In this document: positions 6,651-61,694 of the stretch, in pieces
Layout of the letters: every line of letters begins with the position of its first letter
Numbering within the stretch: position 1 is the first letter of the stretch
NCBI GenBank assembly: GCA_964016885.1
Contig: OZ024746.1
Coordinates: 17,608,001-17,672,000, forward strand
Origin: Eledone cirrhosa
Taxonomy: Eukaryota
Direction: 5' to 3'
DNA: 64,000 nucleotides
Translations under genes and position numbers: made by a program
Notes under the pieces: model-generated
The model's database searches: none
What the model saw: the letters and a program-made list of their open reading frames with translations, nothing else
Told to the model about the DNA's origin: nothing

Positions 6651-6898
6651 CTTTGTTATATATATATATATATATATATATATTTCGTTTCTGAATTTGT
6701 TTAGCAAGATTCTTTATCTGAAATCGTGTGTTGAAACCGATATTGTTATACTTTGGGAGGGTCATGTTGCCAATAAGAAACACACGCACCAGTTGCTTTC
6801 ACTTCAATTTAATTTATTATATATTTATAAATTTACAAATTTATAAATTTCTGGTTGGTTGGTTGGTTCCACAACCAGATAGTTGTTTATATATATAT

Positions 6899-6943
6899 AG
6901 TCATAGTTCTTTCGTCACACACTCTGTGACCTCTTCAGTGACT
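6899..6943 (-). ncRNA. Minimal hammerhead ribozyme motif (mirror copy)
   Basis: Reverse complement of 7185-7229 in the left arm. Confidence 0.7.
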
Positions 6944-7184
6944 GGGGATTTCTTTCTTCGTTTCTGTGCCTTTCCTTTCTTCTATCCTACGCCATTTTGT
7001 TTGTGTGTGGGTTGCGTGCTCAGTTTGCGCATGCGCCACATCCGGGTGTCTGTGTGTGTTTGTGACAAACACACACAGACACCCGGATGTGGCGCATGCG
7101 CAAACTGAGCACGCAACCCACACACAAACAAAATGGCGTAGGATAGAAGAAAGGAAAGGCACAGAAACGAAGAAAGAAATCCCC

Positions 7185-7229
7185 AGTCACTGAAGAGGTC
7201 ACAGAGTGTGTGACGAAAGAACTATGACT
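7185..7229 (+). ncRNA. Minimal type-I hammerhead ribozyme motif
   Basis: AGTCA-CTGAAGA-g-GTCACA-gagtg-TGTGAC-GAAA-G-aa-C-TA-TGACT: stem I AGUCA/UGACU, stem II 6 bp, stem III 2 bp. Confidence 0.72.
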
Positions 7230-7380
7230 ATATATATATAAACAACTATCTGGTTGTGGAACCAACCAACCAACCAGAAATTTATAAATTTGTAAATTTA
7301 TAAATATATAATAAATTAAATTGAAGTGAAAGCAACTGGTGCGTGTGTTTCTTATTGGCAACATGACCCTCCCAAAGTAT

Positions 7381-7420
<40 letters not shown>

Positions 7421-22480: not shown

Positions 22481-25400
22481 CATATACATACATATACATA
22501 TAGATATATATACATATACATACATATATATATATATATACATAATATACATATATATATCCATATATATATATATATCAGCATCATCATTTTACGTCCG
22601 CTTTTCCCTGCTTGCAAGAGTGGGACGAGTCCTCTTCAACACAACATCTCCATTTATCACAGTCCTTCGTCATCTCCTCTGTGAGCTTCAACAATCTCTA
22701 TATATATATACACGTTATATACTTTGACCATGGTAGTTCGTGTTTTCTTTTCTTCGAGATTTGAAATAGTTGTATAGGATTATCATCATTCATCATCATT
22801 TCATTTTACGTCCGCTTTTCCCTGCTTGCAAGGGTGGGATAGGAACTGATTCTGGCTTGATTTCTGGCTTCATTTACAGTGAGTGGTGGGTGCTTTTTTG
22901 CCGTGGCACCTCCACGACCACTTTGCAGTGGAATGATAGGGGCCCAAGTCCCTATTATCTCATTTCTACAGCTGAGTAAACTGGAGCAATGTGAAATAAA
23001 GTGTCTTGCTCAAGGAAACAACACATCACCCGGTCTGAGAATTGAACTCACAACCTTTCGATTGCAAGGCCAATGCTCTAACCACTAAGCCATGTTCCTC
23101 CATAGTATAGGTATAATAACTAATGCAACATATTTAAAAATTCTGATTGCTTTTTTCCTGTTATATGTATTGCATTATATAACTATTTTGTTTTTCTGTT
23201 ATATTCTTCTATAAGTGTAATCTGGGATGGGTTTTTTTCAAATCTAACTTCCATTGAGCTTTTATAGAATAACTAAATCAAAATGTTATTTTTATTTTGA
23301 TATATATATATATATAGGGTGGGTAAAATTCCCGAGATCCATGGATGAGTTCTCTCCAGCAGTCTCTGTCCCTCATCATCGCTGCCATGTCCTGCGTCTC
23401 CAAGAGACCGGTGTCTGTCCTTAGGGCATCAACATATGTCAACCCCAGTCTCCCTCTTCTATACATATATATCCTCATCATCATTGTTTAACGTCCATTT
23501 TCCATGCTAGCATGGGTAGGACGGGCAGTCCCTTTCTGAGAGATCTGGTTGGAGAACCATGTATCGCTCATGCAGGGCTGATTTTGGCCTGGTTTCTATG
23601 GCTGGATGCCCTTCCTAACGACAACCGCATTTACAGTGTGTGATGGGTGCTTTTGGTCATGTCGCCATCACGACCACTTTATAGCAGGGGCTGGGTACTT
23701 TTTGTCGAGTCGCCATCATGACTACTTTACAGTGTGGGTTGGAGGCTTCACTGGATATATACTTCAGTTTGTCCTATATATATATATATATGCACACACA
23801 CACACACATGTACGTACACACACACACACATGTACACATACGCAAACACACACACACATATATATATATATATAAACCCTCACCTCTGTATAACCCTATT
23901 TATAAACCTCTATAAAATAGAATCCCACAGTTTAACACTCATTCATGTCCCCATTCAGACTGGTTTCCTAGTAACAAGATCAATCAGAATACTTGATGTC
24001 ATTAACCTGTTTCTGATGTCTTTGTAAATAATTGTTGATAATGTCCCTGTATTTCATCTTTGTTGTTATTTAGCAGTCTCTATAAGGGTTTAACAGGGAT
24101 TAGAAGAATGGTTTAATGGACTAGAAGAGGGGTTTTAAGAGGGTATAGCGAAAAGGCGAATGAGAGAGAGGGAACTGAAAGTTCTTCGTTTTATAGGGTT
24201 CTGCCGGAAGTGATAAAAAGGGTTCTATCACCCAAACGGGAAGCAACTCCAACTACTTCCCGTCTAGAGAGCGTTACTCCATTGGTGATGTGAGTGTCAC
24301 AAGGGAGGCAACTCCTGCTACTAGGGACTAAACGAAGGGTCTAACTGGGCCTAGAGGAAGGGTTTAAGAGGGATTATAGGAGGGGTTTAAGAGGGACTAG
24401 ATGAGGGGTTTAACAGGGACCATAAGGAGCACCAGCCTTAGAAACTCTGGAAAAGATCATGAGTACTTCTCTGCCATCATCTCTGACTAAACACGAAAAA
24501 AAGAAATAAAACAACATTATTCGAATAGTTGTCCTTCCTTATTTAAGACAATGGAATGTGATTTGAAAGAGAACTTAGCTGCTATTTCTTACAAGTTGAG
24601 GGAGCATGTATTGCATGTTGGAGCATCTATTGTACTTGGGAGCATATTTTGTATGTGATGGTGCACCTATTGTATGTGGTGGTGCATCTATTGTATGTGG
24701 TGGTGCACCTATTGTATGTGGTGATGCACCTATTGTAAGTGGTGGTGCATCTATTGTATGTGGTGGTGCACCTATTGTATGTGGTGGTGCACCTATTGTA
24801 TGTGGTGGTGCATCTATTGTATGTGGTGGTGCACCTATTGTATGTGGTGGTGCACCTATTGTATGTGGTGGTGCATCTATTGTATGTGGTGGTGCACCTA
24901 TTGTATGTGGTGGTGCATCTATTGTATGTGGTGGTGCACCTATTGTATGTGGTGGTGCATCTATTGTATGTGATGGTGTATCTATTGTATGTGGTGGTGT
25001 ATCTATTGTATGTGGTGGTGCACCTATTGTATGTGGTGGTGCATCTATTGTATGTGGTGGTGCACCTATTGTATGTGGTGGTGTATCTATTGTATGTGGT
25101 GGTGCACCTATTGTAAGTGGTGGTGCATCTATTGTATGTGGTGGTGCACCTATTGTATGTGGTGGTGCACCTATTGTATGTGGTGGTGCATCTATTGTAT
25201 GTGGTGGTGCACCTATTGTATGTGGTGGTGCACCTATTGTATGTGGTGGTGCATCTATTGTATGTGGTGGTGCACCTATTGTATGTGGTGGTGCATCTAT
25301 TGTATGTGGTGGTGCATCTATTGTATGTGATGGTGTATCTATTGTATGTGATGGTGCATCTATTGTATGTGGTGGTGCACCTATTGTATGTGGTGGTGCA

Positions 25401-27132
25401 TCTATTGTATGTGGTGGTGTACCTATTGTATGTGGTGGTGCATCTATTGTATGTGGTGGTGCACCTATTGTATGTGGTGGTGCATCTATTGTATGTGATG
25501 GTGCATCTATTGTATGTGGTGGTGCACCTATTGTATGTGGTGGTGCATCTATTGTATGTGGTGGTGCACCTATTGTATGTGGTGGTGCATCTATTGTATG
25601 TGGTGGTGCACCTATTGTATGTGGTGGTGCATATATTGTATGTGATGGTGTATCTATTGTATGTGGTGGTGCATCTATTGTATGTGGCGTTGCACCTATT
25701 GTATGTGGTGGTGCATCTATTGTATGTGGTGGTGCACCTATTGTATGTGGTGGTGCATCTATTGTATGTGGTGGTGCACCTATTGTATGTGGTGGTGCAT
25801 CTATTGTATGTGGTGGTGCATCTATTGTATGTGGTGGTGCACCTATTGTATGTGGTGGTGCATCTATTGTATGTGGTGGTGCACCTATTGTATGTGGTGG
25901 TGCACCTATTGTATGTGGTGGTGCACCTATTGTATGTGGTGGTGCACCTATTGTATGTGGTGGTGCACCTATTGTATGTGGTGGTGCATCTATTGTATGT
26001 GGTGGTGTATCTATTGTATGTGGTGGTGCATCTATTGTATGTGGTGGTGCACCTATTGTATGTGGTGGTGCATCTATTGTATGTGGTGGTGCATCTATTG
26101 TATGTGGTGGTGCATATATTTATGCGATGGTGCATCTATTGTATGTGATGGTGCACCTATTGTATGTGATGGTGCACCTATTGTACATGGTGGTGCACCT
26201 ATTGTATGTGGTGGTGCATCTATTGTATGCGATGGTGCATCTATTGTATGTGATGGTGCACCTATTGTATGTGATGGTGCACCTATTGTACATGGTGGTG
26301 CACCTATTGTATGTGGTGGTGCATCTATTTATGCGATGGTGCATCTATTGTATGTGATGGTGCACCTATTGTATGTGATGGTGCACCTATTGTACATGGT
26401 GGTGCACCTATTGTATGTGGTGGTGCATCTATTGTATGTGGTGGTGCATCTATTGTATGTGATGGTGCATCTATTGTAAGTGGTGGTGCACCTATTGTAT
26501 GTGATGGTGCATCTATTGTATGTGATGGTGCACCTATTGTATGTGGTGGTGCATCTATTGTATGTGATGGTGCATCTATTGTATGTGATGGTGCACCTAT
26601 TGTATGTGGTGGTGCATCTATTGTATGTGATGGTGCAGGATGTGTTGTTTACTAAGTGAAAAAGGTGGGACAGATTTTTGCTTTCATTCCATTCATAACA
26701 GCACATTTAATTAACATTAACTTCCTATATAGACAATATTAATTGCTTGATAATAAAGCCACCAACAATGTTAGAGATCAATAAATCAATATACTTCAAT
26801 GTTGGATATCAATAATAGCTCCATTCAGAATATTAAAGGTGAAGGTGGTGGTGGTGATTGTAGATATAAGTATTTATATATAAATAAATATAGGTGTCTA
26901 TTTATACAAACAGGAAATGTATGTATGTATGGTGTATGTATGTATGTATGTATGTATGTATGTATGTATGGTGTATGTATGTATGTATGGTATATGTATG
27001 TATGTATGGTGTATGCATGAATGTGGGTGTGTGTATTCTTACCCACAGCCACAAATATATACATATATATACACACACACACATATATATATGTGTATAT
27101 ATATATATACACATACACACACACACACACAC

Positions 27133-30100: not shown

Positions 30101-33100
30101 CTGGTACTTTATTTTATCAACTCCATAAGGATGAAAGGCAAAGCTAACCTCAGCAAGATTTGAACTCAAAAAATAAAGCACTGGAACAAACACTGCAAAG
30201 CATCTGTCAGCTGTTTTAACAATTCTGCCAATCTGCTGCCATATTAATTACTCAAATAATAATAATAACTATCTGGAAAAACCTCAACATAAATTAAGGA
30301 CAGATATGAAGAGTATGGAAGGATGTTAATAGGAGAAAGGGCAAGATTGCACCTCATCATAGACACCGGGTTGTGGTCTTCACTTAACTGAAAAACATCC
30401 AACAAAATATTTGCCATTCCACTACTCCTGGACTGGTTTTTATATTATTTAACCCCTGAAAAGATGAACGACAAAGTTGACCATGGCAGAATTTGAACCC
30501 AGAATACAGAGAGTTGGTACAAATATGAGGTCTTTAATCAAACAGTCTAACAACATCTTAAAGACCAATCATCATCATTATCATCATTATTGTTTAATCT
30601 CTATTTTCAATGTGTGCATGGGTTGGATGGTTGTCATGTACTGAGGCCTGATTGGTCAGGTGACTAGGTCCTGCTTGTACGCCTTGCTTTGGCTTGGCTT
30701 CTCTAGCTGGATGTCCTTCCTAACGCCAACCACTTTACAGTATGTACTGAGAGCATTTTATCATGATGTCAGCACTACAAACTTACAGGATGGATTGAGT
30801 GGTTTTCGTCATGGCCGCAGCACTACACCCTCACAGGGTGGACTGGATGCTTTTATCATGGCACCAATGCTATCACATTACAGGGTGGACTAGGTGCTTT
30901 GGTCATGGCACCAGCACTACCTCATTACAACACTAGTGAGCTCAGAGTATTTGGTCCTGCTAGGGTGTGGTGGGTGGATTGAAGTAGTGTTTAAAACATT
31001 ATCAAACAAAGAACAGTTCCTTTTCCAATTTGAATGTGAAATTTAACAAACCGTCTCTGAATTTTGTATGAACAATATTCTTTCCATAAAGTCTGTCTTC
31101 TCTTCTGCCTTACTGCTATGGACTATTATATGTCCAAACTCAATTTCACCATCATCCTTCCAATATTTACAGCAGGTCTGCAAAATTATTAAAAATAAAA
31201 TAAAAAAAAACAAACACATTTTGCTAATTAATAAATTAAGGGGCAATATATACAATAAGGATGAAATGTGAATGTGAATCTAGTGATGAAATGTGAATCT
31301 AGTGATGAAATGTGAATCTAGTATTGAAATGTGAATCTAGTGATGAAATGTTAATCTTTACTACCATGTGGTCAACAAAGTGGAGCAAAACTCCTAAAAA
31401 CCACAATAAATCATTTTCTGTAACTCCTGATAATTATATAAGTTTTTAAAGTCTAGCAGCAATCTGTAAAGTAAGAATTGTAAATGGTGAAATTGTAACT
31501 CACTTCATCCATAGAATCATCACTATTCAACATCACAATTGTGCTACTTTGGATATCACAAACCATCTGCCAAAAATCTTCAATAGTTTCCTTCATTGGC
31601 ATCTGTGTAGCTATATAATTGCGGGGATTTTCATGACTCTGTAATTGAAATGGAAGAAAATATAAACATAAACCCACTGACTAGAATTTTTAAAAATCAA
31701 GATAAAAAAAAAATCTTCTAATTTAGATCCAAGTCAAAGTGTCAGATAGAATATTCTGGTCATCTGGTTCCTACAGCCTCACGATAACAAGTCACTACGC
31801 TCTTCCATCTTTCTCTGTCTCTAGCAAGGATTGGCTCTTGAAACCAGTTTGTGCCACACCTGTGCAGGTCATCTTTTAGGGTGGATCTCCAGGTTTTCTT
31901 TGGCCTACCCCCTTGGTCTTTTCCCAGCAGCTGGCAAACACAACATTGCATTTCTTGCTGGTATATTGTCTTCTATTCATATGACATACTCTGCTAGTAC
32001 AATGTACTGCCTGGATCAGAAATGGAACCCACAACTTTATGATCATGATTACTACAACCTAACTAAAAGACAAGGGGTTGGAAGTTTGTATCTTGTTTTT
32101 ACATTTTATAGACAGACAAGTGTCAGAGAGGGCAGGTGGCTGTAAAACATTTGCCTCAAATCCTCATGTCCAACCCATGCCAACATGGAGGATGAGGAGG
32201 AGGAGGAGAGGAGGAGGGGGGAGAGGAGAAAAAAGCAAAAAAAAACAAAAACAGTATAAATATAAGAAATCAGATATACAATTACAGGTAGATAAACCGC
32301 ATTGATATATCGTGGCTGGCCATCTGGTGCAGGCTTTAGATAGGGGCGATACAAGTCACCTGAAATGTTTAAAAAAAGAAAGTGTTTTGATTATAAATAA
32401 TCAAATTTGTAATTTTAATGTTCTACTTGACAGAAAACTGTTGTGATAGTTGATATATCACCTCAATAGATGGCATGTTACCTCTGTGGTAGGTATGTTA
32501 CCGCAGTGGTAGGTATGTTACCTCAGTGGTAGGTATGTTACCTCAGTGGCAGGTATGTTACTTCAATAGAAGGTATGTTACCTCATTGGTAGGTATGTTA
32601 CCTCAGTGGTAGGTATGTTACCTCAGTGGTAGGTATGTTACCTCAGTGGTAGGTATGTTACCTCAGTGGTAGGTATGTCACCTCAATAGATGGCATGTTA
32701 CCTCTGTGGTAGGTATGTTACCTCAGTGGTAGGTATGTTACCTCAGTGGTAGGTATGTTACCTCAGTGGCAGGTATGTTACTTCAATAGAAGGTATGTTA
32801 CCTCAGTGGTAGGTATGTTACCTCAGTGGTAGGTATCTTACCTCAGTGGCAGGTATGTTACCTCAGTGGCAGGTATGTTACCTCAGTTGTAGGTACGTTA
32901 CCTCTGTTGTAGATATGTTACCTCAATGGTAGGTATGTTACCTCAGTGGTAGGTATGTTACCCCAATAGAAGGTATGTTACCTCAGTGGTAGGTTTGTTA
33001 CCTCAGTGGTAGGTATGTTACCTCAGTGGAAGGTATATTACCTCAGTGGTAGGTATATTACCTCAGTGGAAGGTATGTTACCTCATTGGTAGGTATGTTA

Positions 33101-36100
33101 CCTCATTGGTAGGTATGTTACCTCAGTGGTAGGTATGTTACCTCAGTGGTAGGTATGTTACCTCATTGGTAGGTATGTTACCTCATTGGTAGGTATGTTA
33201 CCTCAGTGGTAGGTATGTTACCTCAGTGGTAGGTATGTTACCTCAGTGGTAGGTATGTTACCTCAGTGGTAGGTATGTTACCTCAGTGGTAGGTATGTTA
33301 CCTCAATAGTAAATATGTTACCTCATAAGTAGGTATGTTACCTCAATAGTAGGTATGTTACCTCAGTGGTAGGTATGTTACCTCAGTGGTAGGTATGTTA
33401 CCTCAGTGGTAGGTATATACACAATACAATTTAGTCAAAATAATAATAAGCTACTTACTAGCAAGAATATTTTTCACACGCGTTTTATTCAAATTATTTT
33501 TCAATTTTGCCGTTTCTAAAAATTCTTGAGATGTCTGAGGATATTCAAGTTCTTGTAGTTCCTGAGTGGAAATAAAAGGTTGACAAATTTCATGTAGTCT
33601 GAGAGAAAAAGGCAATGGCTGTGATGTCAGGGAGGGGCTGTGTCTATAGTCCTTTTCAGGGCCTCTGAGACTGGTAAGAGAGAAATGGACAGTGTGTATG
33701 ACCCTTTCTTGGGCCACCAAAAGTGCTGAGAGGGATGGGGTAGTACCTATGACCTGCTTCAGGGTTTCCAAAAGTACTGAGAAGGAGGAGTAGTGTGTAT
33801 GACCCTTTCTAGGGTCTCCAAGGGTGGTGAAAGGGAGGAATGAAGGTACTGTAAACAAGTGACTTGGTCTGAATGATTGCATTAACACACCTACTACCAA
33901 CAACAGCAGTTGCCATGTTAAGGTTAAATGAAAGTCTTAATGTAATACATCTACCACCAACACCAACAGTAGCTGCCATATTAAGAGTTAAGTGAAAGTT
34001 GATGTTGAAACAAACCTGAAATTGTTGCTGTAGAAGTGTTTTGGAAGAAACATTCTCCTCATTTTCTTCATTCAACTTCTGATAAAAATTGGGGAAATTC
34101 TCAATGGTTACTTGTGTTTGCTGTAAAAATATACTTTCCACAAGAGCAAAGTAGATGAATTCATACTGATCCTAAAGAAAGAAAGAAAGAATGTGTTATA
34201 CCTTCATTTAACCCTTTAATTACCATGTTATTAATGAAAGACACTATGTCATTAACCCTTTCATTACCATGTTTCCAATGAAAGACACTGTCTATATATT
34301 AACCCTTTCATTACCAAGTTTCTAATGAAAGACACTGTCTATATATTAACCCTTTCATTACCATGTTTCCAATGAAAGACACTGTTTATATCATTAACCC
34401 TTTCATTGCCATGTTTCTAATGAAAGACACTGTCTATATATTAACCCTTTCATTACCATGTTTCTAATGAAAGACACTGTCTATATATTAACCCTTTCAT
34501 TGCCATGTTCTAATGAAAGACACTGTTTATATCATTAACCCTTTCATTACCATGTTTCTAATGAAAGACACTGTCTATATATTAACCCTTTCATTACCAT
34601 GTTTCTAATGAAAGACACTCTATATATTAACCCTTTCATTGCCATGTTCTAATGAAAGACACTGTCTATATATTAACCCTTTCATTACCATGTTTCTAAT
34701 GAAAGACACTGTCTATATATTAACCCTTTCATTACCATGTTCTAATGAAAGACACTGTCTATATATTAACCCTTTCATTGCCATGTTCTAATGAAAGACA
34801 CTGTCTATATATTAACCCTTTCATTACCATGTTTCTAATGAAAGACACTGTCTATATATTAACCCTTTCATTACCATGTTTCCAATGAAAGACACTGTCT
34901 ATATATTAACCCTTTCAATACCATGTTTCTAATGAAAGACACTGTCTATATATTAACCCTTTCATTGCCATGTTTCTAATGAAAGACACTGTTTATATCA
35001 TTAACCCTTTCATTGCCATGTTTCTAATGAAAGACACTGTCTATATATTAACCCTTTCATTACCATGTTTCTAATGAAAGACACTGTCTATATATTAACC
35101 CTTTCATTGCCATGTTCTAATGAAAGACACTGTTTATATCATTAACCCTTTCATTACCATGTTTCTAATGAAAGACACTGTCTATATATTAACCCTTTCA
35201 TTACCATGTTTCTAATGAAAGACACTGTCTATATATTAACCCTTTCATTGCCATGTTCTAATGAAAGACACTGTCTATATATTAACCCTTTCATTACCAT
35301 GTTTCTAATGAAAGACACTGTCTATATATTTACCCTTTCATTACCATGTTCTAATGAAAGACACTGTCTATATATTAACCCTTTCATTACCATGTTGCTA
35401 ATGAAAGACACTGTCTATATATTAACCCTTTCATTACCATGTTTCTAATGAAAGACACTGTTTATATCATTAACCCTTTCATTGCCATGTTTCTAATGAA
35501 AGACACTGTCTATATATTAACCCTTTCATTGCCATGCTTCTAATGAAAGACACTGTTTATATCATTAACCCTTTCATTGCCATGTTTCTAATGAAAGACA
35601 CTGTCTATATATTAACCCTTTCATTACCATGTTTCTAATGAAAGACACTGTCTATATATTAACCCTTTCATTGCCATGTTCTAATGAAAGACACTGTTTA
35701 TATCATTAACCCTTTCATTGCCATGTTTCTAATGAAAGACACTGTCTATATATTAACCCTTTCATTACCATGTTTCTAATGAAAGACACTGTCTATATAT
35801 TAACCCTTTCATTGCCATGTTCTAATGAAAGACACTGTTTATATCATTAACCCTTTCATTGCCATGTTTCTAATGAAAGACACTGTCTATATATTAACCC
35901 TTTCATTACCATGTTTCTAATGAAAGACACTGTCTATATATTAACCCTTTCATTACCATGTTTCTAATGAAAGACACTGTCTATATATTAACCCTTTCTT
36001 TACCACGTTTCTAATGAAAGGTACTGCCTATGTCATTAACCCTTTCATTGCCGTGTTTCTAATGAAAGGTACTGCTTATGGTTTTCAAATCATTTTGAAA

Positions 36101-39100
36101 CTAATCAAAAATTTGAAATATTTAGTAATGTAAGCTGTTCTCCTACATTGTCCAGACATATATCATTATGGTAGCGGTGGCAGTGGTCTGTGTACATTAT
36201 ATATATATATACATGTATGCATATATGTCTCTAAGACATGACAACTTCCCTACTAGCAAAGAAATCAGATGTTAAGCCATGATGACAATGATGATAATGA
36301 TAAAGATAATGATGATGATGATGATTAAGATGATGAGTTTTAATATATAAAGTTGAAATACCTCAATCTGTACCATGTTCAGTCTGGCTTTTCTCATTCG
36401 ATTTACACACCCAAATATATCTATGGTGCCTTGGTGTAAAGCTTCGTCCATTAAGAAATCAAGGGCAATAAATGTGCCACTCCTGCCAATTCCAGCACTA
36501 AAAGAAAGGCAACAAAAATATATAAAATGGGGAGTAAATAAAAATAACTAACAAGCAAATAAAACTAATTCAAAAATATTTTGCCTCAATCTGGCAAAGG
36601 TTTGTGTTTTAACTTTTAACATTTCTCAAATGATTAGCAGAAAGTATTCAAAAATGGCTTTGTTAAATTCAAATGTTTATAGTACCTTTATTAGTGGACA
36701 GATTGTTGTGACCATAGCCCCAGTTCAGGAACTATCAAGAATCCCTAGACTAAGCCCTAAAAAAAGAAAAGTAATGAAATAATATTTACCTGCAGTGTAC
36801 TACAAGGGGACCGGTTTCTGCTTCAGTATCATTACGAATTTTCATCATGAAGTTAACCAATCCAGTCGGGGTTGGGGGAACTCCATGATCTGACCATGAG
36901 GTAAAGTGAAATTGATCCAGTTTTCTCACTGGTTCTTCACCCTAATATAGAAAAGAAAGAGATGTAGATTTTAGAGATGATAGCTGCTGCCTCCACTGCT
37001 ACCATCACCACCACTTCTTCCACTTCCATCACTACCATCAATACCAACACCACAACTACTCCTACCACCACCACCACCACCACTGCCACCACCATCATTT
37101 GACTTCAGTAGCAGATGGCCATCCCCTATTGCCAATCCACCCTCTATAGCTAATCTGCCTCCTATTATCATTCTACCCCCTATTGCTACTCTTATGAGGT
37201 AGACTCAATATGTTCCTTTACTCTCAATAAAGACCCCTCTGTTGTAGACATTCAGGTAAGGTCTCTAGTTTGAGGACCCCTTCCGTTCTTTTTCCTTTCC
37301 TGACAAAACAATAAAAATAATCAGCTGCCTGTTGCCAAGTGTAAAAAAATAACATCTGTTTTTCCATGTTGGCATGGGTCAGACAGATTGTCAAAGACCA
37401 AATCAATGTTTCATTTGTGTTACTGTCCTACCCTCTCAGGTGGGACAAAAGGCATGTCTTATTTACATACATTCCACTGTTGGCATAGTTTCTACAGCTG
37501 AATGTCATCCCTAATGCCAATCACTTTACAGAGTGTATTGAGTGCATTTTCTTGTGACCCCCAGCAGTAAAAACTTTGTCATGTCCTTCACATAACTGAA
37601 GCATCCTCTCAACCCCTTTTGGCATGGCTTCTATAGTTGGATGCTCTTCCTAAAAGCAATCACTTTACCAAGTGTACTGGATACATTATATCATGGCACC
37701 ATCACTAAAAAGATTATTATGTCCCCAAAACAAGTGGAGATTCTTCTCAAACGTTTTTGTCATGGCTTCTATGTCTGGATGCCCTTCTTAATACCAACCC
37801 CCTTATAGAGCTCAACACTTTATCTGACACGGATCCTACAGCTGGATACCCTTCCTCACATCAACCACTTTACAGACTGTACTGGGTGCATTTAATTTTG
37901 ACCCCAGCACTACATGTTGCCAATCCACTGCCAAAATTGAAAATCCCCATTCAAAATTTAAAAACAGAATCAGTAAACAATTTCAATATAAAATATCAAT
38001 ACTTTGGTGTTTGACACAGGAAGTTGTGTCAAATGTATTATAAGAAGGACTGGGATTGTATTTCATACCTTTTGTAAAAGAAATGACCTGATGGTAAAAT
38101 CACTGAAGTTTTGTTCTCGAATACATCGGATCTTTAAATCTCCAGAAACTTTCACCTCTTTATCTGGCCAATACTTTTCACATTTTGTCTGGAAATTGCA
38201 AAATAAATATAATTATTTTATCAATTATAAAGAAACAAGTATTTTTGTTAAAACGGGCAAATAAAATGTTATATACTCTAAAAAGATAAAGAAGGGTCTT
38301 AGACCCAAAATATTAGGACAGGTAAATAAAATAACAGGTAACACACCAACATCTTTATTGCCTTCAATTTATTCCAAAATCTACCGTCCATTCAGCCTTG
38401 TTGTAGCCTTCAACTAACTACTTTATACACTAACACAATGCTTCAAGCAAACTACAACATGCTCTTATTTTTGTTAATATTTGAAAGGGAAATGGAAGAG
38501 ATTCTAGATATTATGCTCTCAGAGCACCCTCCTCCATTGCTAAGATAGCAGAAGCTATCAACCACTTCTTTGTGACTGGAATAGGCTTACATCACTGGTT
38601 ATCTTTCTCTCGATTACCCCTGAGCATCCTCTACAAACAAAGTCTTCCTATCCTGTTAGCTTACTTGTTTTCTCACTAAATCTCTTGTGTGCCCCAAATT
38701 TACATTGTGTACTGCGTATGGAGTTTAAGCCTACTCCCTTTCTACATACTGAGCAGGGCCACTTCCCTGAAGGAATCAGGGTCCTATCTTCTCTTCTACT
38801 AACAAGCACTTTAATTTTGGCCTTTTGATTCAAATTCTGTTTCCATAGTCGGGACTTATTTTCTAGGTGTTTAATGGAGTTGGCTATAAGAGAAGTTCCC
38901 ATGGGCAGTTGGTCTTAAACTCCTCTTTTATAGCCTGGAGAACTATAATGAACAACAGTGGGCTAAGAACCGAACCTTGATGAACTCCTACTTGTACCTT
39001 GAAACCCTCACTAAACTCATTTCCTACTCTCACATTGTTGACAGCTCCCTAGTAAATGACTCACACTGCTCTCACCAACCATTCTTCTACACCTAATTTC

Positions 39101-60156: not shown

Positions 60157-60201
<45 letters not shown>

Positions 60202-60813
60202 ATACTTTGGGAGGGTCATGTTGCCAATAAGAAACACATGCACCAGTTGCTTTCAATTCAATTTATTATAATAAATTTATAATAAATTTATAATAAATTT
60301 ATAAATTTCTGGTTGGTTGGTTGGTTCCACAACCAGATAGTTGTTTATATATTGTCATAGTTCTTTCGTCACACACTCTGTGACCTCTTCAGTGACTGGG
60401 GATTCCTTTCTTTGTTTTTGTGCCTCTCCTTTGTTCTGTCCTACGCCATTTTGTTTCTGAGAAACAAAATGGCGTAGGCGTAGGACAGAACAAAGGAGAG
60501 GCACAAAAACAAAGAAAGGAATCCCCAGTCACTGAAGAGGTCACAGAGTGTGTGACGAAAGAACTATGACAATATATAAACAACTATCTGGTTGTGGAAC
60601 CAACCAACCAACCAGAAATTTATAAATTTATAAATTTATTATAAATTTATTATAATAAATTGAAGTGAAAGCAACTGGTGCGTGTGTTTCTTATTGGCAA
60701 CATGACCCTCCCAAAGTATAACAATATCGGTTTCAACACACGATTTCAGATAAAGAATCTTGGCTAAACAAATTCAGAAACGAAATATATATATATATGT
60801 GTGTGTGTGTGTA

Positions 60814-60898
<85 letters not shown>

Positions 60899-61694
60899 AT
60901 GTGTGTATATATATGTATATATATATATATGTAAACAAGTTTAAGTAAGTTGATATTAGAACCATATAAAAACAAAAAAAAAACGGAAGATTAACAAGGA
61001 TTTTAATTAAAGCATTTAATCTATTTATGACTGTTAGAATAATTCCTCAGAATCAATCAAATGCAAATAAATAAATACTTTACATGTTCCATAATTCCAG
61101 GGAGAGAAGAGTGAAAAACGTTAATACTTATCTTCAGTCAAAAAATATGGCGAAAGCGTCTATTTCTAATTACAAACTCGCTTGTGGTTTCAAAACAAAT
61201 ATATATATATATCATCATCATCGTTTAACGTCTATCTTCCATGCTAGCATGGGTTTAGATGGGAATTGTCCTTCATGAAGCAAGATTGGTCAGGTGACCA
61301 TGTCTCGCTCGTATAGGACTGTCTGGCAGGTTTTCTACGGCTGGATGCCCTTCCTAACACCAACCACGTTTACAGTGTGGACTGGGAGGTTTTTACCGTG
61401 GAAGTGAGTAAAATCGAAGTTGCGGCGTTCAGCCAGCATCCATGAAAAGACTATTTGGAAGCTTTGCATGAAGCACTCAATCGATAGGTTACATATCAGA
61501 GTAATAAACATACATTAAAAGGCATGACAAATTGAAAACTGTGGTTAAGGGGACAAAGCCACAGAAGCCACCACAACAACAAAAATATAATCAGGTTAAA
61601 TAACAAACCCTGACCGTATCAAAAGATATACAATATCCTCGATTGGTTTCTGTGAATCTTAAATCAACAATCCAACTTGTGCAATATGCAAGTC

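What the first reader, a model, noticed from the sequence alone, without database searches (positions are those of the whole stretch)
60194..60785. Family A copy 2 turns around at a different point but has the same asymmetric ends
Same family 53 kb away in opposite orientation. The fold-back centre differs (~55 bp shorter per arm), yet the short arm stops at the same sequence (ccaaagtataacaata) and the long arm keeps the same ~58-bp extension ending cagaaacgaaa before (TA)n. Substitutions that distinguish copy 2 from copy 1 are present in both of its arms. So each palindrome was made from a single template at insertion (fold-back priming or template switch during reverse transcription) or the arms are homogenised afterwards. 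Two independent copies also argue against an assembly artefact. It lies ~230 bp upstream of the EGF-1 exon acceptor.
Basis: partly seen in the sequence, partly recalled or inferred. Interest (0 to 1): 0.72.

Follow-up and report, generated by a model that had tools for sequence, protein, structure and literature searches.

The report
Mirror-image Penelope retroelement end stubs
The two palindromes are short 3'-end pieces of a very abundant Penelope-like jumping gene, each joined head to head to a mirror copy of itself that lacks the last 58 bases and sitting in a TA repeat; this shape is already described for that group and was likely made while the element's RNA was copied into DNA at insertion.

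Summary
Copy 2 (window 60194-60785) and copy 1 (6683-7388) are palindromes in opposite orientation with different centres. Both have the same short-arm end and the same one-sided 58-nt extension, and both lie in (TA)n.

They are not MITEs. The arm plus extension is the 3' UTR and 'tail' of a Penelope-like retroelement (PLE). [quoted passage not shown] The arm/tail junction occurs 12,278 times in the genome.

In a sample of 90 3' ends, 45 carry an inverted 5'-truncated copy. Its outer end is tail-less in 35, has the tail in 2, and was not traced in 8. This matches the published PLE insertion shape (Craig et al. 2021): inverted copy, one-sided tail, (TA)n target.

Arms are not homogenised later. 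Divergence is 1.9% within copies and 3.9% between copies. Private mutations mirrored in both arms, and a tree in which palindromes mix with long copies, indicate that each palindrome was made at insertion.

This scan had already reached the same reading on other windows of this genome. It is a new member of a known kind, of modest interest. The fixed tail-less end, the preferred start point and the excess of symmetric pairs are useful footprints of the unsolved PLE insertion mechanism.

The parts
60195..60457 (+). Copy 2, tail-less mirror (antisense) copy of the PLE 3' UTR. The outer end TATTGTTATAC abuts (TA)n; the boundary is ambiguous by 1-2 nt inside the TA run.
   Evidence: the same outer end is seen in 27 of 27 full-length relatives
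60458..60460 (.). Copy 2 centre (3-nt spacer tga between gtttc and gaaac)
   Evidence: the same centre type recurs among 121 genomic places
60461..60727 (+). Copy 2, sense copy of the PLE 3' UTR. It starts at the preferred start point (C)AGAAACAAAATGGCG and contains a 6-bp duplication cgtagg at 60474-60485.
   Evidence: the same sequence follows the RT/EN frame in L079
60728..60785 (+). Copy 2 'tail': the last 58 nt of the PLE 3' end, present on this side only, ending CAGAAACGAAA before (TA)n
60528..60570 (+). Candidate minimal hammerhead motif in the sense arm (GUCA-CUGAAGA-G-GUCACA..UGUGAC-GAAA-G-AA-CUA/UGAC). Its mirror lies on the minus strand at 60354-60396.
   Evidence: read by eye. Rfam found no hammerhead at E<=10 in the equivalent region of L079. 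Some inner ends of mirror copies fall at the predicted cut.
60167..60194 (.). (TA)n flank at the tail-less end of copy 2
60786..60930 (.). (TA)n/(TG)n tract at the tail end of copy 2
6683..6739 (-). Copy 1 tail (reverse complement on the + strand), next to (TA)n
6740..7063 (-). Copy 1 sense copy of the PLE 3' UTR (324 nt). It reaches to within about 70 nt of where the stop codon lies in coding copies.
7065..7388 (-). Copy 1 tail-less mirror copy, 100% complementary to 6740-7063; 1-nt centre at 7064

Best explanation
Both copies are 5'-truncated insertions of a Penelope-like retroelement (reverse transcriptase plus C-terminal GIY-YIG endonuclease) in which the element's 3' untranslated end is present twice, head to head, in a (TA)n tract, the mirror copy lacking the terminal 58-nt 'tail'; the mirror copy was likely made during target-primed reverse transcription of one short RNA (fold-back of the cDNA or a second priming from the other cut DNA end), not by later homogenisation.

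Shown:
- The arm plus tail is the sequence that follows the RT/EN open frame in longer copies.
- The family is huge in this genome.
- Half of its 3' ends carry an abutting inverted copy.
- That copy almost always stops exactly 58 nt short of the 3' end.
- Target duplications of 8-12 bp flank the whole unit where they can be read.
- The arms drift apart after insertion.

Inferred:
- The endonuclease nicks the (TA)n target and the RT copies the RNA from its 3' end. I take this from the published model of PLE and non-LTR retrotransposon insertion, not from my own calls.
- The different turn-around points of copy 1 and copy 2 reflect different 5' ends of the copied RNA or cDNA. Copy 2 lies at a preferred start, (CA)n-AGAAACAAAAUGGCG.
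- Symmetric palindromes such as these two arise when the same cDNA is used twice. The commoner uneven pairs arise from two separately truncated copies.

The reason for the fixed tail-less end is not known.
For: L050 holds the arm and tail at both ends. Between them lies a 148-aa frame with CX4CX2C and GIY-YIG (PF01541, E 5.9e-5, above the cut-off).

L079 has a 534-aa open frame with YVDD (RVT_1, E 0.0022, below the cut-off) and GIY-YIG (E 1.3e-4, at the cut-off). It is followed by the arm, the tail and (TA)n. The Atlas neighbours of this frame are RT+GIY-YIG clusters.

Abundance: the EN search gave 35,932 first-look candidates; the 150 that were scored all had E <= 4.6e-83. The arm/tail 28-mer gave 12,278 exact hits against 0 for the control.

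Sample of 90 3' ends (94 occurrences, 4 duplicates dropped): 20 long, 25 plainly truncated, 45 with an abutting inverted copy. The outer end of the inverted copy is tail-less in 35, has the tail in 2, and was not traced by the script in 8; 4 of those 8 reach the tail-less end by eye.

Symmetric pairs number 8 of 35 against 1.9 expected from shuffling (P about 1.5e-4).

Tail-to-head tandem junctions: 430 exact.

Target duplications: 12 bp in L017, L037 and L154; 10 bp in L040 and L055; 8 bp in L059.

Arms: mean divergence 1.9% within copies against 3.9% between copies. There are 8 private substitutions mirrored in both arms. For 8 of 27 short palindromes the nearest relative is a long, plain or uneven copy, and the tree interleaves the classes.

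Literature, passages read: PMC8557442 describes the inverted 5'-truncated copy, a 30-40-bp tail often at one end only, and (TA)n targets. PMC4209133 describes minimal hammerheads in PLE repeats and pairs of them 100-700 bp apart on opposite strands.
Against: No RNA or biochemical evidence was available.

The RT match is below Pfam's cut-off, and no RT phylogeny was made, so the PLE clade is open.

Rfam finds no hammerhead in the 3' UTR.

The tail is 58 nt, against the 30-40 bp described.

At least 40 near-full-length relatives share copy 2's centre to within a few nt, and 121 places hold that centre exactly. This could also mean that a palindromic unit copies itself.

Perfect palindromes with a 1-nt centre are hard to obtain from a simple snap-back loop.

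In L041 no target duplication is visible.
Confidence: 0.88

Rival explanations
1. The roughly 590-bp palindrome is itself a non-autonomous element. Its whole sequence, or its sense arm transcribed from the centre, would be copied again and again by the PLE machinery. In that case copy 2's relatives descend from palindromic masters rather than arising afresh from coding elements.
For: About 40 places match copy 2 over its full length at 88-97%. 121 places hold the same centre with a 0-9-nt spacer. A short internally deleted derivative joined at the same point exists (L172).
Against: The short palindromes are not one clade: they interleave with long coding copies, and 8 of 27 have a non-palindromic nearest neighbour (many nodes are weakly supported, and the 27 were chosen for likeness to copy 2). 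The same start point is used by plain copies (L145, L157, L139) and by uneven pairs (L094, L095, L116, L118). Shared arm asymmetries are few. The expected number of symmetric pairs at a start point used by about 10% of ends is of the order observed.
Confidence: 0.1
2. A fold-back or MITE-type DNA transposon that targets TA, with the differences between copies caused by later internal deletions.
For: Long inverted arms, TA-rich flanks, no coding capacity in the two window copies.
Against: The true ends are not inverted repeats of each other: one end carries 58 extra nt. The arm is the 3' UTR of an RT/EN frame. Copies form a 5'-truncation series. Target duplications are 8-12 bp, not TA. Uneven pairs are as young as even ones: pooled arm divergence is 2.9-5.6% against 4.1%, and some uneven pairs show 0-1 differences. 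This speaks against later deletion as the source of the differences.
Confidence: 0.02
3. The arms are kept alike after insertion by gene conversion or hairpin repair between them.
For: Copy 1's arms are identical over 324 nt. Copy-specific substitutions sit in both arms.
Against: Across 28 copies the arms differ by 0-5.6% (mean 1.9%). The partner arm is strictly the nearest arm for only 13 of 56 arms. Most of the 194 arm asymmetries are private to one copy (63 columns hold a single copy each), or recur at a column with different bases or in opposite directions.
Confidence: 0.03
4. Two independent insertions landed head to head in one (TA)n tract.
For: (TA)n attracts repeated insertions. In L033 two 3' ends face each other across (TA)13. 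Two pairs carry tails on both sides (L127, L162).
Against: In 35 of 37 traced pairs the mirror copy lacks the tail that every independent 3' end has. It abuts the sense copy with no TA between them (gaps -34 to +53, mostly within 15). Target duplications flank the whole unit (L017, L037, L154).
Confidence: 0.03

Closest known systems
Insertion architecture of endonuclease-positive Penelope-like elements (Craig, Yushenova, Rodriguez & Arkhipova 2021, PMC8557442; passages read)
   Same: Strong 5' truncation. An inverted 5'-truncated copy abuts the 5' end. A short 'tail' extension often sits at one end only. Partial tandems (pseudo-LTRs) occur. Insertion is biased to (TA)n. A CX2-5CxxC motif lies before GIY-YIG. 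Target duplications are hard to read.
   Different: The tail here is 58 nt rather than 30-40. The clade (Neptune/Nematis/Hydra type) was not determined. The (TA)n bias was reported there for Naiads and attributed to Neptune by citation, whereas here the EN is C-terminal. The quantitative rules seen here (tail-less in 35 of 37 traced pairs, an excess of symmetric pairs, a preferred start point) are not in the passages I read.
Minimal hammerhead ribozymes in PLE repeats (Cervera & de la Pena 2014, PMC4209133; passages read)
   Same: The motif has the conserved CUGANGA...GAAA core, a long helix II (6 bp) with an unpaired base at its 5' end, and a short helix I (4 bp). Pairs of motifs 100-700 bp apart on opposite strands were reported there and attributed to truncated PLEs.
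   Different: The motif here was read by eye. Rfam did not score it. Its helix III loop is not palindromic. Self-cleavage is untested.
Twin priming of L1 elements giving 5' inversions
   Same: An inverted 5' part is joined to a sense 3' part during target-primed reverse transcription, with a second priming from the other DNA end.
   Different: In L1 the inverted part comes from RNA upstream of the sense part. Here both halves copy the same 3' end, and the second copy starts at one fixed internal site.
Micron, a (TA)n-microsatellite-targeting element of rice
   Same: A short non-coding element flanked by (TA)n on both sides, with subterminal inverted repeats.
   Different: No link to an RT/EN element is known to me for Micron. 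Here the coding parent is identified.

Membership tests
Endonuclease-positive Penelope-like elements (PLE) | Reverse transcriptase of the PLE/telomerase-related type in the single ORF | tested here: inconclusive
   The 534-aa frame in L079 has YVDD and matches RVT_1 at E 0.0022, 18.2 bits, below the 29.6 cut-off. Its Atlas neighbours are RT+GIY-YIG clusters. No RT phylogeny was made, and the frame is N-terminally truncated.
Endonuclease-positive Penelope-like elements (PLE) | GIY-YIG endonuclease fused to the RT (C-terminal in canonical clades) | tested here: met
   PF01541 scores 23.7 bits (cut-off 22.6) in L050 and 22.7 bits in L079, at the C-terminal end of the same frame as YVDD.
Endonuclease-positive Penelope-like elements (PLE) | CX2-5CxxC linker before GIY-YIG (Neptune/Nematis/Naiad type) | tested here: met
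   PCIDKKCIICK lies just upstream of NVVYSIRC...IVYIGET in the translations (read by eye).
Endonuclease-positive Penelope-like elements (PLE) | Partial tandems forming pseudo-LTRs | tested here: met
   430 exact tail-to-head junctions, 0 for the control. In 21 of the 23 loci read, the sense partial copy ending at the junction is 43 to >1146 nt long; 2 loci show none. In 20 of 23 a long body follows.
Endonuclease-positive Penelope-like elements (PLE) | Inverted 5'-truncated copy abutting the 5' end | tested here: met
   45 of 90 sampled 3' ends; both window copies.
Endonuclease-positive Penelope-like elements (PLE) | Short tail extension often at one end only | tested here: met
   35 mirror copies are tail-less, 2 have the tail and 8 were not traced. 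The tail is 58 nt, longer than the 30-40 bp described.
Endonuclease-positive Penelope-like elements (PLE) | Hammerhead ribozyme motif in the repeats (canonical clades) | tested here: inconclusive
   A core motif is present by eye at window 60528-70. Rfam gives no hammerhead at E<=10 or E<=1. The inner ends of L150 and L134 fall at the predicted cut, and 6 of 95 inner ends lie within 205-220 nt of the 3' end.
Endonuclease-positive Penelope-like elements (PLE) | Microsatellite insertion bias | tested here: met
   A TA-rich tract starts directly after the tail in 26 of 27 full-length relatives and in nearly all sampled copies.
MITE / fold-back DNA transposons | Terminal inverted repeats reaching both true ends, with a fixed short target duplication | tested here: not met
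   One end carries 58 nt with no counterpart. Target duplications are 8-12 bp.
L1-type twin-priming inversions | Inverted and sense parts come from adjacent, non-overlapping parts of the RNA | tested here: not met
   Both halves cover the same 3' region, from 58 nt to X and from 0 to Y.
Retrozymes (non-autonomous hammerhead retroelements) | Direct tandem repeats with a hammerhead in each, giving circular RNA | not tested
   The two motifs of a palindrome lie on opposite strands, so one RNA would carry one. No RNA data were available.

The most novel reading that the evidence does not exclude
These palindromes are natural footprints of a step peculiar to Penelope-like insertion. The same short RNA or cDNA is used twice. 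The second copy always starts, or is resolved, at one exact internal site 58 nt from the 3' end. The first 8 and last 7 nt of the skipped tail are complementary, so both end points would sit at the base of one stem. RNA 5' ends, one of them a hammerhead cut, set the turn-around points. If so, this one family, with over 12,000 dated copies, could settle how PLEs build inverted repeats and tails.
Probability: 0.3. Interest if true: 0.55.

Novelty: new member of a known kind. Interest (0 to 1): 0.3.

Why it matters
For annotation, these hairpins should be masked as Penelope-like retroelement fragments. They should not be called MITEs, microRNA precursors (Rfam's microRNA models score them up to 99 bits) or assembly errors. 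They also sit in introns close to splice sites.

For mechanism, how PLEs make inverted repeats and tails is stated to be unsolved (PMC8557442). This family offers many young, datable examples with simple rules that an in vitro system or long-read RNA data could test.

Tried and rejected
Rfam on copy 1 gave only hairpin-shaped microRNA models, all below their gathering scores and on both strands alike. I take these as an effect of the perfect hairpin, not as genes. Rfam on the non-palindromic 3' UTR of L079 gave nothing meaningful and no hammerhead.

Folding the tail RNA showed no stable structure: -5.4 kcal/mol, z 0.87, with 162 of 200 shuffles folding at least as well.

I considered Helitron and Helentron ends (5' TC, 3' CTRR, A|T or T|T target; recalled features) by eye and dropped them. 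The ends do not fit, and target duplications exist.

I considered a Mutator-like reading because of the 10-12-bp duplications and dropped it once the RT/EN parent was found.

Searching the genome with copy 1's central 180 nt found only 4 places, so the long centre is rare.

Earlier notes searched by place (near) and by sequence gave nothing.

I tested whether uneven pairs are older than even ones, which would point to later deletion. They are not.

Full report
**What is there.** Copy 2 (window 60194-60785) is a palindrome. Its left arm runs from TATTGTTATAC... to ...CCATTTTGTTTC, followed by a 3-nt spacer. The right arm carries one 6-bp duplication and continues for 58 nt (60728-60785) to CAGAAACGAAA. 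(TA)n lies on both sides. Copy 1 has 324-nt arms that are 100% complementary with a 1-nt centre (6740-7063 / 7065-7388). The same extension sits on its other side (6683-6739), so copy 1 lies in the opposite orientation. The shared 16-mer at the four arm ends is far above chance: 4 found, 0.17 expected. Fourteen substitutions separate the copies, and each is present in both arms. Copy 2's arms differ at 2 sites and copy 1's at none.

**Family.** The window's own genome (3.0 Gb) holds about 40 places that match copy 2 over its whole length at 88-97% (925 first-look candidates, 40 scored). In 27 loci the two ends are constant, but the centres differ by a few nucleotides: gtttc[T]gaaac, gtttct[G]agaaac, gtttctg[A]cagaaac, (TG)n-type spacers and small one-sided deletions. 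Copy 1's longer centre is rare, at 4 places.

**Identity.** Locus L050 has the arm and extension at both ends. Between them is a 148-aa frame with a CX4CX2C motif and a GIY-YIG domain. L079 has a 534-aa open frame with a YVDD reverse-transcriptase piece and the same C-terminal GIY-YIG. After it come a stop codon, the arm sequence, the 58-nt extension and (TA)n. The Atlas neighbours of this frame are RT+GIY-YIG clusters. The stop codon lies about 455 nt from the 3' end, so both window copies consist of 3' UTR only. The endonuclease search gave 35,932 first-look candidates; the 150 scored all had E <= 4.6e-83. The arm/extension junction 28-mer occurs 12,278 times, against 0 for the control. Tail-to-head tandem junctions occur 430 times. 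This is a Penelope-like element (PLE). I reached this reading before consulting the scan's earlier notes.

**Comparison with print.** Craig et al. 2021 (PMC8557442; passages read) describe PLE insertions as highly 5'-truncated. They say these often have an inverted 5'-truncated copy abutting the 5' end and a 30-40-bp 'tail' often present at one end only. [quoted passage not shown] They call the mechanism undefined. Cervera & de la Pena 2014 (PMC4209133; passages read) report minimal hammerheads in PLE repeats. They also report pairs of such motifs 100-700 bp apart on opposite strands, which they ascribe to truncated PLEs. The window's palindromes are this known shape.

**Rules in an unselected sample.** I took the first 90 loci holding the junction 28-mer. 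They lie in the first 43 Mb of contig C1 and gave 94 occurrences, of which 4 duplicates were dropped. Each was measured against a 1194-nt reference 3' end.
- 20 are long, 25 are plainly 5'-truncated, and 45 have an abutting inverted copy.
- The outer end of that inverted copy lies 58 (once 61) nt from the 3' end in 35 and includes the tail in 2.
- It was not traced by the script in 8. For L084, L092, L104 and L137 the tail-less end can be seen by eye.
- The inner ends are usually uneven: 13 pairs have the mirror copy longer, 14 have the sense copy longer, and 8 agree within 10 nt.
- Eight even pairs is more than shuffling gives (mean 1.9; P about 1.5e-4).
- Uneven pairs are not older than even ones. 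Pooled arm divergence is 5.6% and 2.9% against 4.1%, and several uneven pairs show 0-1 differences. The unevenness is therefore probably made at insertion, not by later deletion.
- Inner ends cluster 305-325 nt from the 3' end in reference coordinates (11 of 95). This is copy 2's turn-around point. It is also used by plain copies (L145, L157) and uneven pairs (L094, L095, L116, L118).
- A smaller cluster lies at 205-220 nt (6 of 95).

**Arms.** Among 28 copies, arm-arm divergence is 0-5.6% (mean 1.9%), against 3.9% between copies. The partner arm is strictly the nearest arm for only 13 of 56 arms. So 'arm-arm identity always exceeds copy-copy identity' is false, and there is no sign of continuing homogenisation. 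Of 194 arm asymmetries, most are private or go in different directions. Eight substitutions private to one of the 27 short copies are mirrored in both of its arms. This pattern fits arms that were identical when the copy was made. On a tree of the last 300 nt, the short palindromes interleave with long coding copies, plain copies and uneven pairs. For 8 of 27 the nearest relative is not a palindrome. Two caveats apply: many nodes are weakly supported, and the 27 were chosen for likeness to copy 2. This favours repeated fresh formation at a preferred point over a self-copying palindromic lineage, without excluding the latter.

**Targets.** Where the flank is not pure TA, duplications flank the whole unit: 12 bp in L017, L037 and L154; 10 bp in L040/L099 and L055; 8 bp in L059. 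In L041 none is visible. In at least 10 plain copies the 5' flank is unique sequence while the 3' flank starts with a TA-rich tract. This suggests, by inference only, that part of the 3' (TA)n is templated or added at priming.

**Hammerhead.** The sense arm holds GUCA-CUGAAGA-G-GUCACA(GAGUG)UGUGAC-GAAA-G-AA-CUA/UGAC (window 60528-60570). This has the conserved core, a 6-bp helix II with an unpaired 5' base and a 4-bp helix I, as described for PLE minimal hammerheads. Rfam does not report it, and its helix III loop is not palindromic. The mirror copies of L150 and L134 end exactly at the predicted cut while their sense partners are longer. This hints that a cleaved RNA served as a second template.

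**Mechanism, marked as inferred.**
- The endonuclease nicks (TA)n, and reverse transcription starts at the RNA 3' end, producing the tail, then the arm.
- Synthesis stops at the RNA's 5' end or earlier.
- A second copy of the same 3' region is then made in the opposite orientation. This happens either by the cDNA serving as its own template (the even pairs, such as both window copies) or by priming from the other cut end on another or a cleaved RNA (the uneven pairs).
- The second copy always begins, or is resolved, at AAUA|UCGG, 58 nt from the end.
- Plain TA microhomology does not explain this site, because better AUAUAUA sites inside the arm are not used.
- The first 8 nt (UCGGUUUC) and last 7 nt (GAAACGA) of the tail are complementary with one bulge, so both end points would sit at the base of one stem. 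This is a post hoc lead that RNAfold does not support.
- Perfect palindromes with a 1-nt centre remain unexplained by a simple snap-back.

**Earlier notes of this scan.** Eight notes on other windows of this genome reach the same identification: head-to-head PLE end stubs in (TA)n, a known shape. They gave me two leads: ends at the ribozyme, and a hairpin in the tail. I tested the first partly and the second with a negative fold.

**Verdict.** The kind is already described, and this is a further family of it, very abundant in this genome.

Noticed in passing
window 24492-26400; 32326-33500; 34251-36239: Three long tandem arrays: a 21-bp unit (about 90 copies, 94-98% alike), a 20-bp unit (46 or more copies) and a 47-bp unit (24 copies).
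   Followed up: no
L193-L200 (G000:C1:132947037-132947575): A tandem array with 46-bp spacing. Its unit is the last bases of the PLE tail joined to the first bases of the element's head; 12 exact junctions lie in a row.
   Followed up: no
L172:1275-1975: A short internally deleted PLE derivative. About 135 nt of the element's head are joined directly to the 3' arm at the same preferred point where copy 2 turns around, preceded by a partial tandem copy.
   Followed up: partly
L033:1100-1930: A long-centre palindrome like copy 1 with a second partial 3' end facing it tail to tail across (TA)13. Its arms have diverged at several sites.
   Followed up: partly
L037:1200-1775: A copy with the long sense arm intact but about 165 nt missing from the mirror arm next to the centre. 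The junction lies at a GTGAC microhomology. A 12-bp target duplication TTTATTTATATA is present.
   Followed up: yes
L157 and L118 flanks: In L157 the two flanks are reverse complements of each other. In L118 a stretch of at least 22 bp is repeated on both sides of the insertion beyond the TA tracts.
   Followed up: no
L025, L115, L150 and L011, L060, L170 (3' flanks): Two other repeated sequences start directly at the far edge of the same (TA)n tracts: '...AACGAAGGAAA.GTGG...' and '...TGAAAAGTGTAATTT...'. They may be further families that use TA repeats.
   Followed up: no
window 60728-60785: The first 8 nt and last 7 nt of the 58-nt tail are complementary with one bulge (UCGGUUUC / GAAACGA). 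This was read by eye and is not chosen by RNAfold.
   Followed up: partly
sequencing runs X5-X13: Runs labelled as other organisms (coded B to J) hold 21-40% of the element's sampled words, so close relatives of this family probably occur in other species.
   Followed up: no
window 6986-7142: Rfam microRNA models (MIR3440 at 99 bits, and others) score the perfect hairpin centre of copy 1 just below their gathering scores, on both strands. This is a likely source of false microRNA calls.
   Followed up: yes
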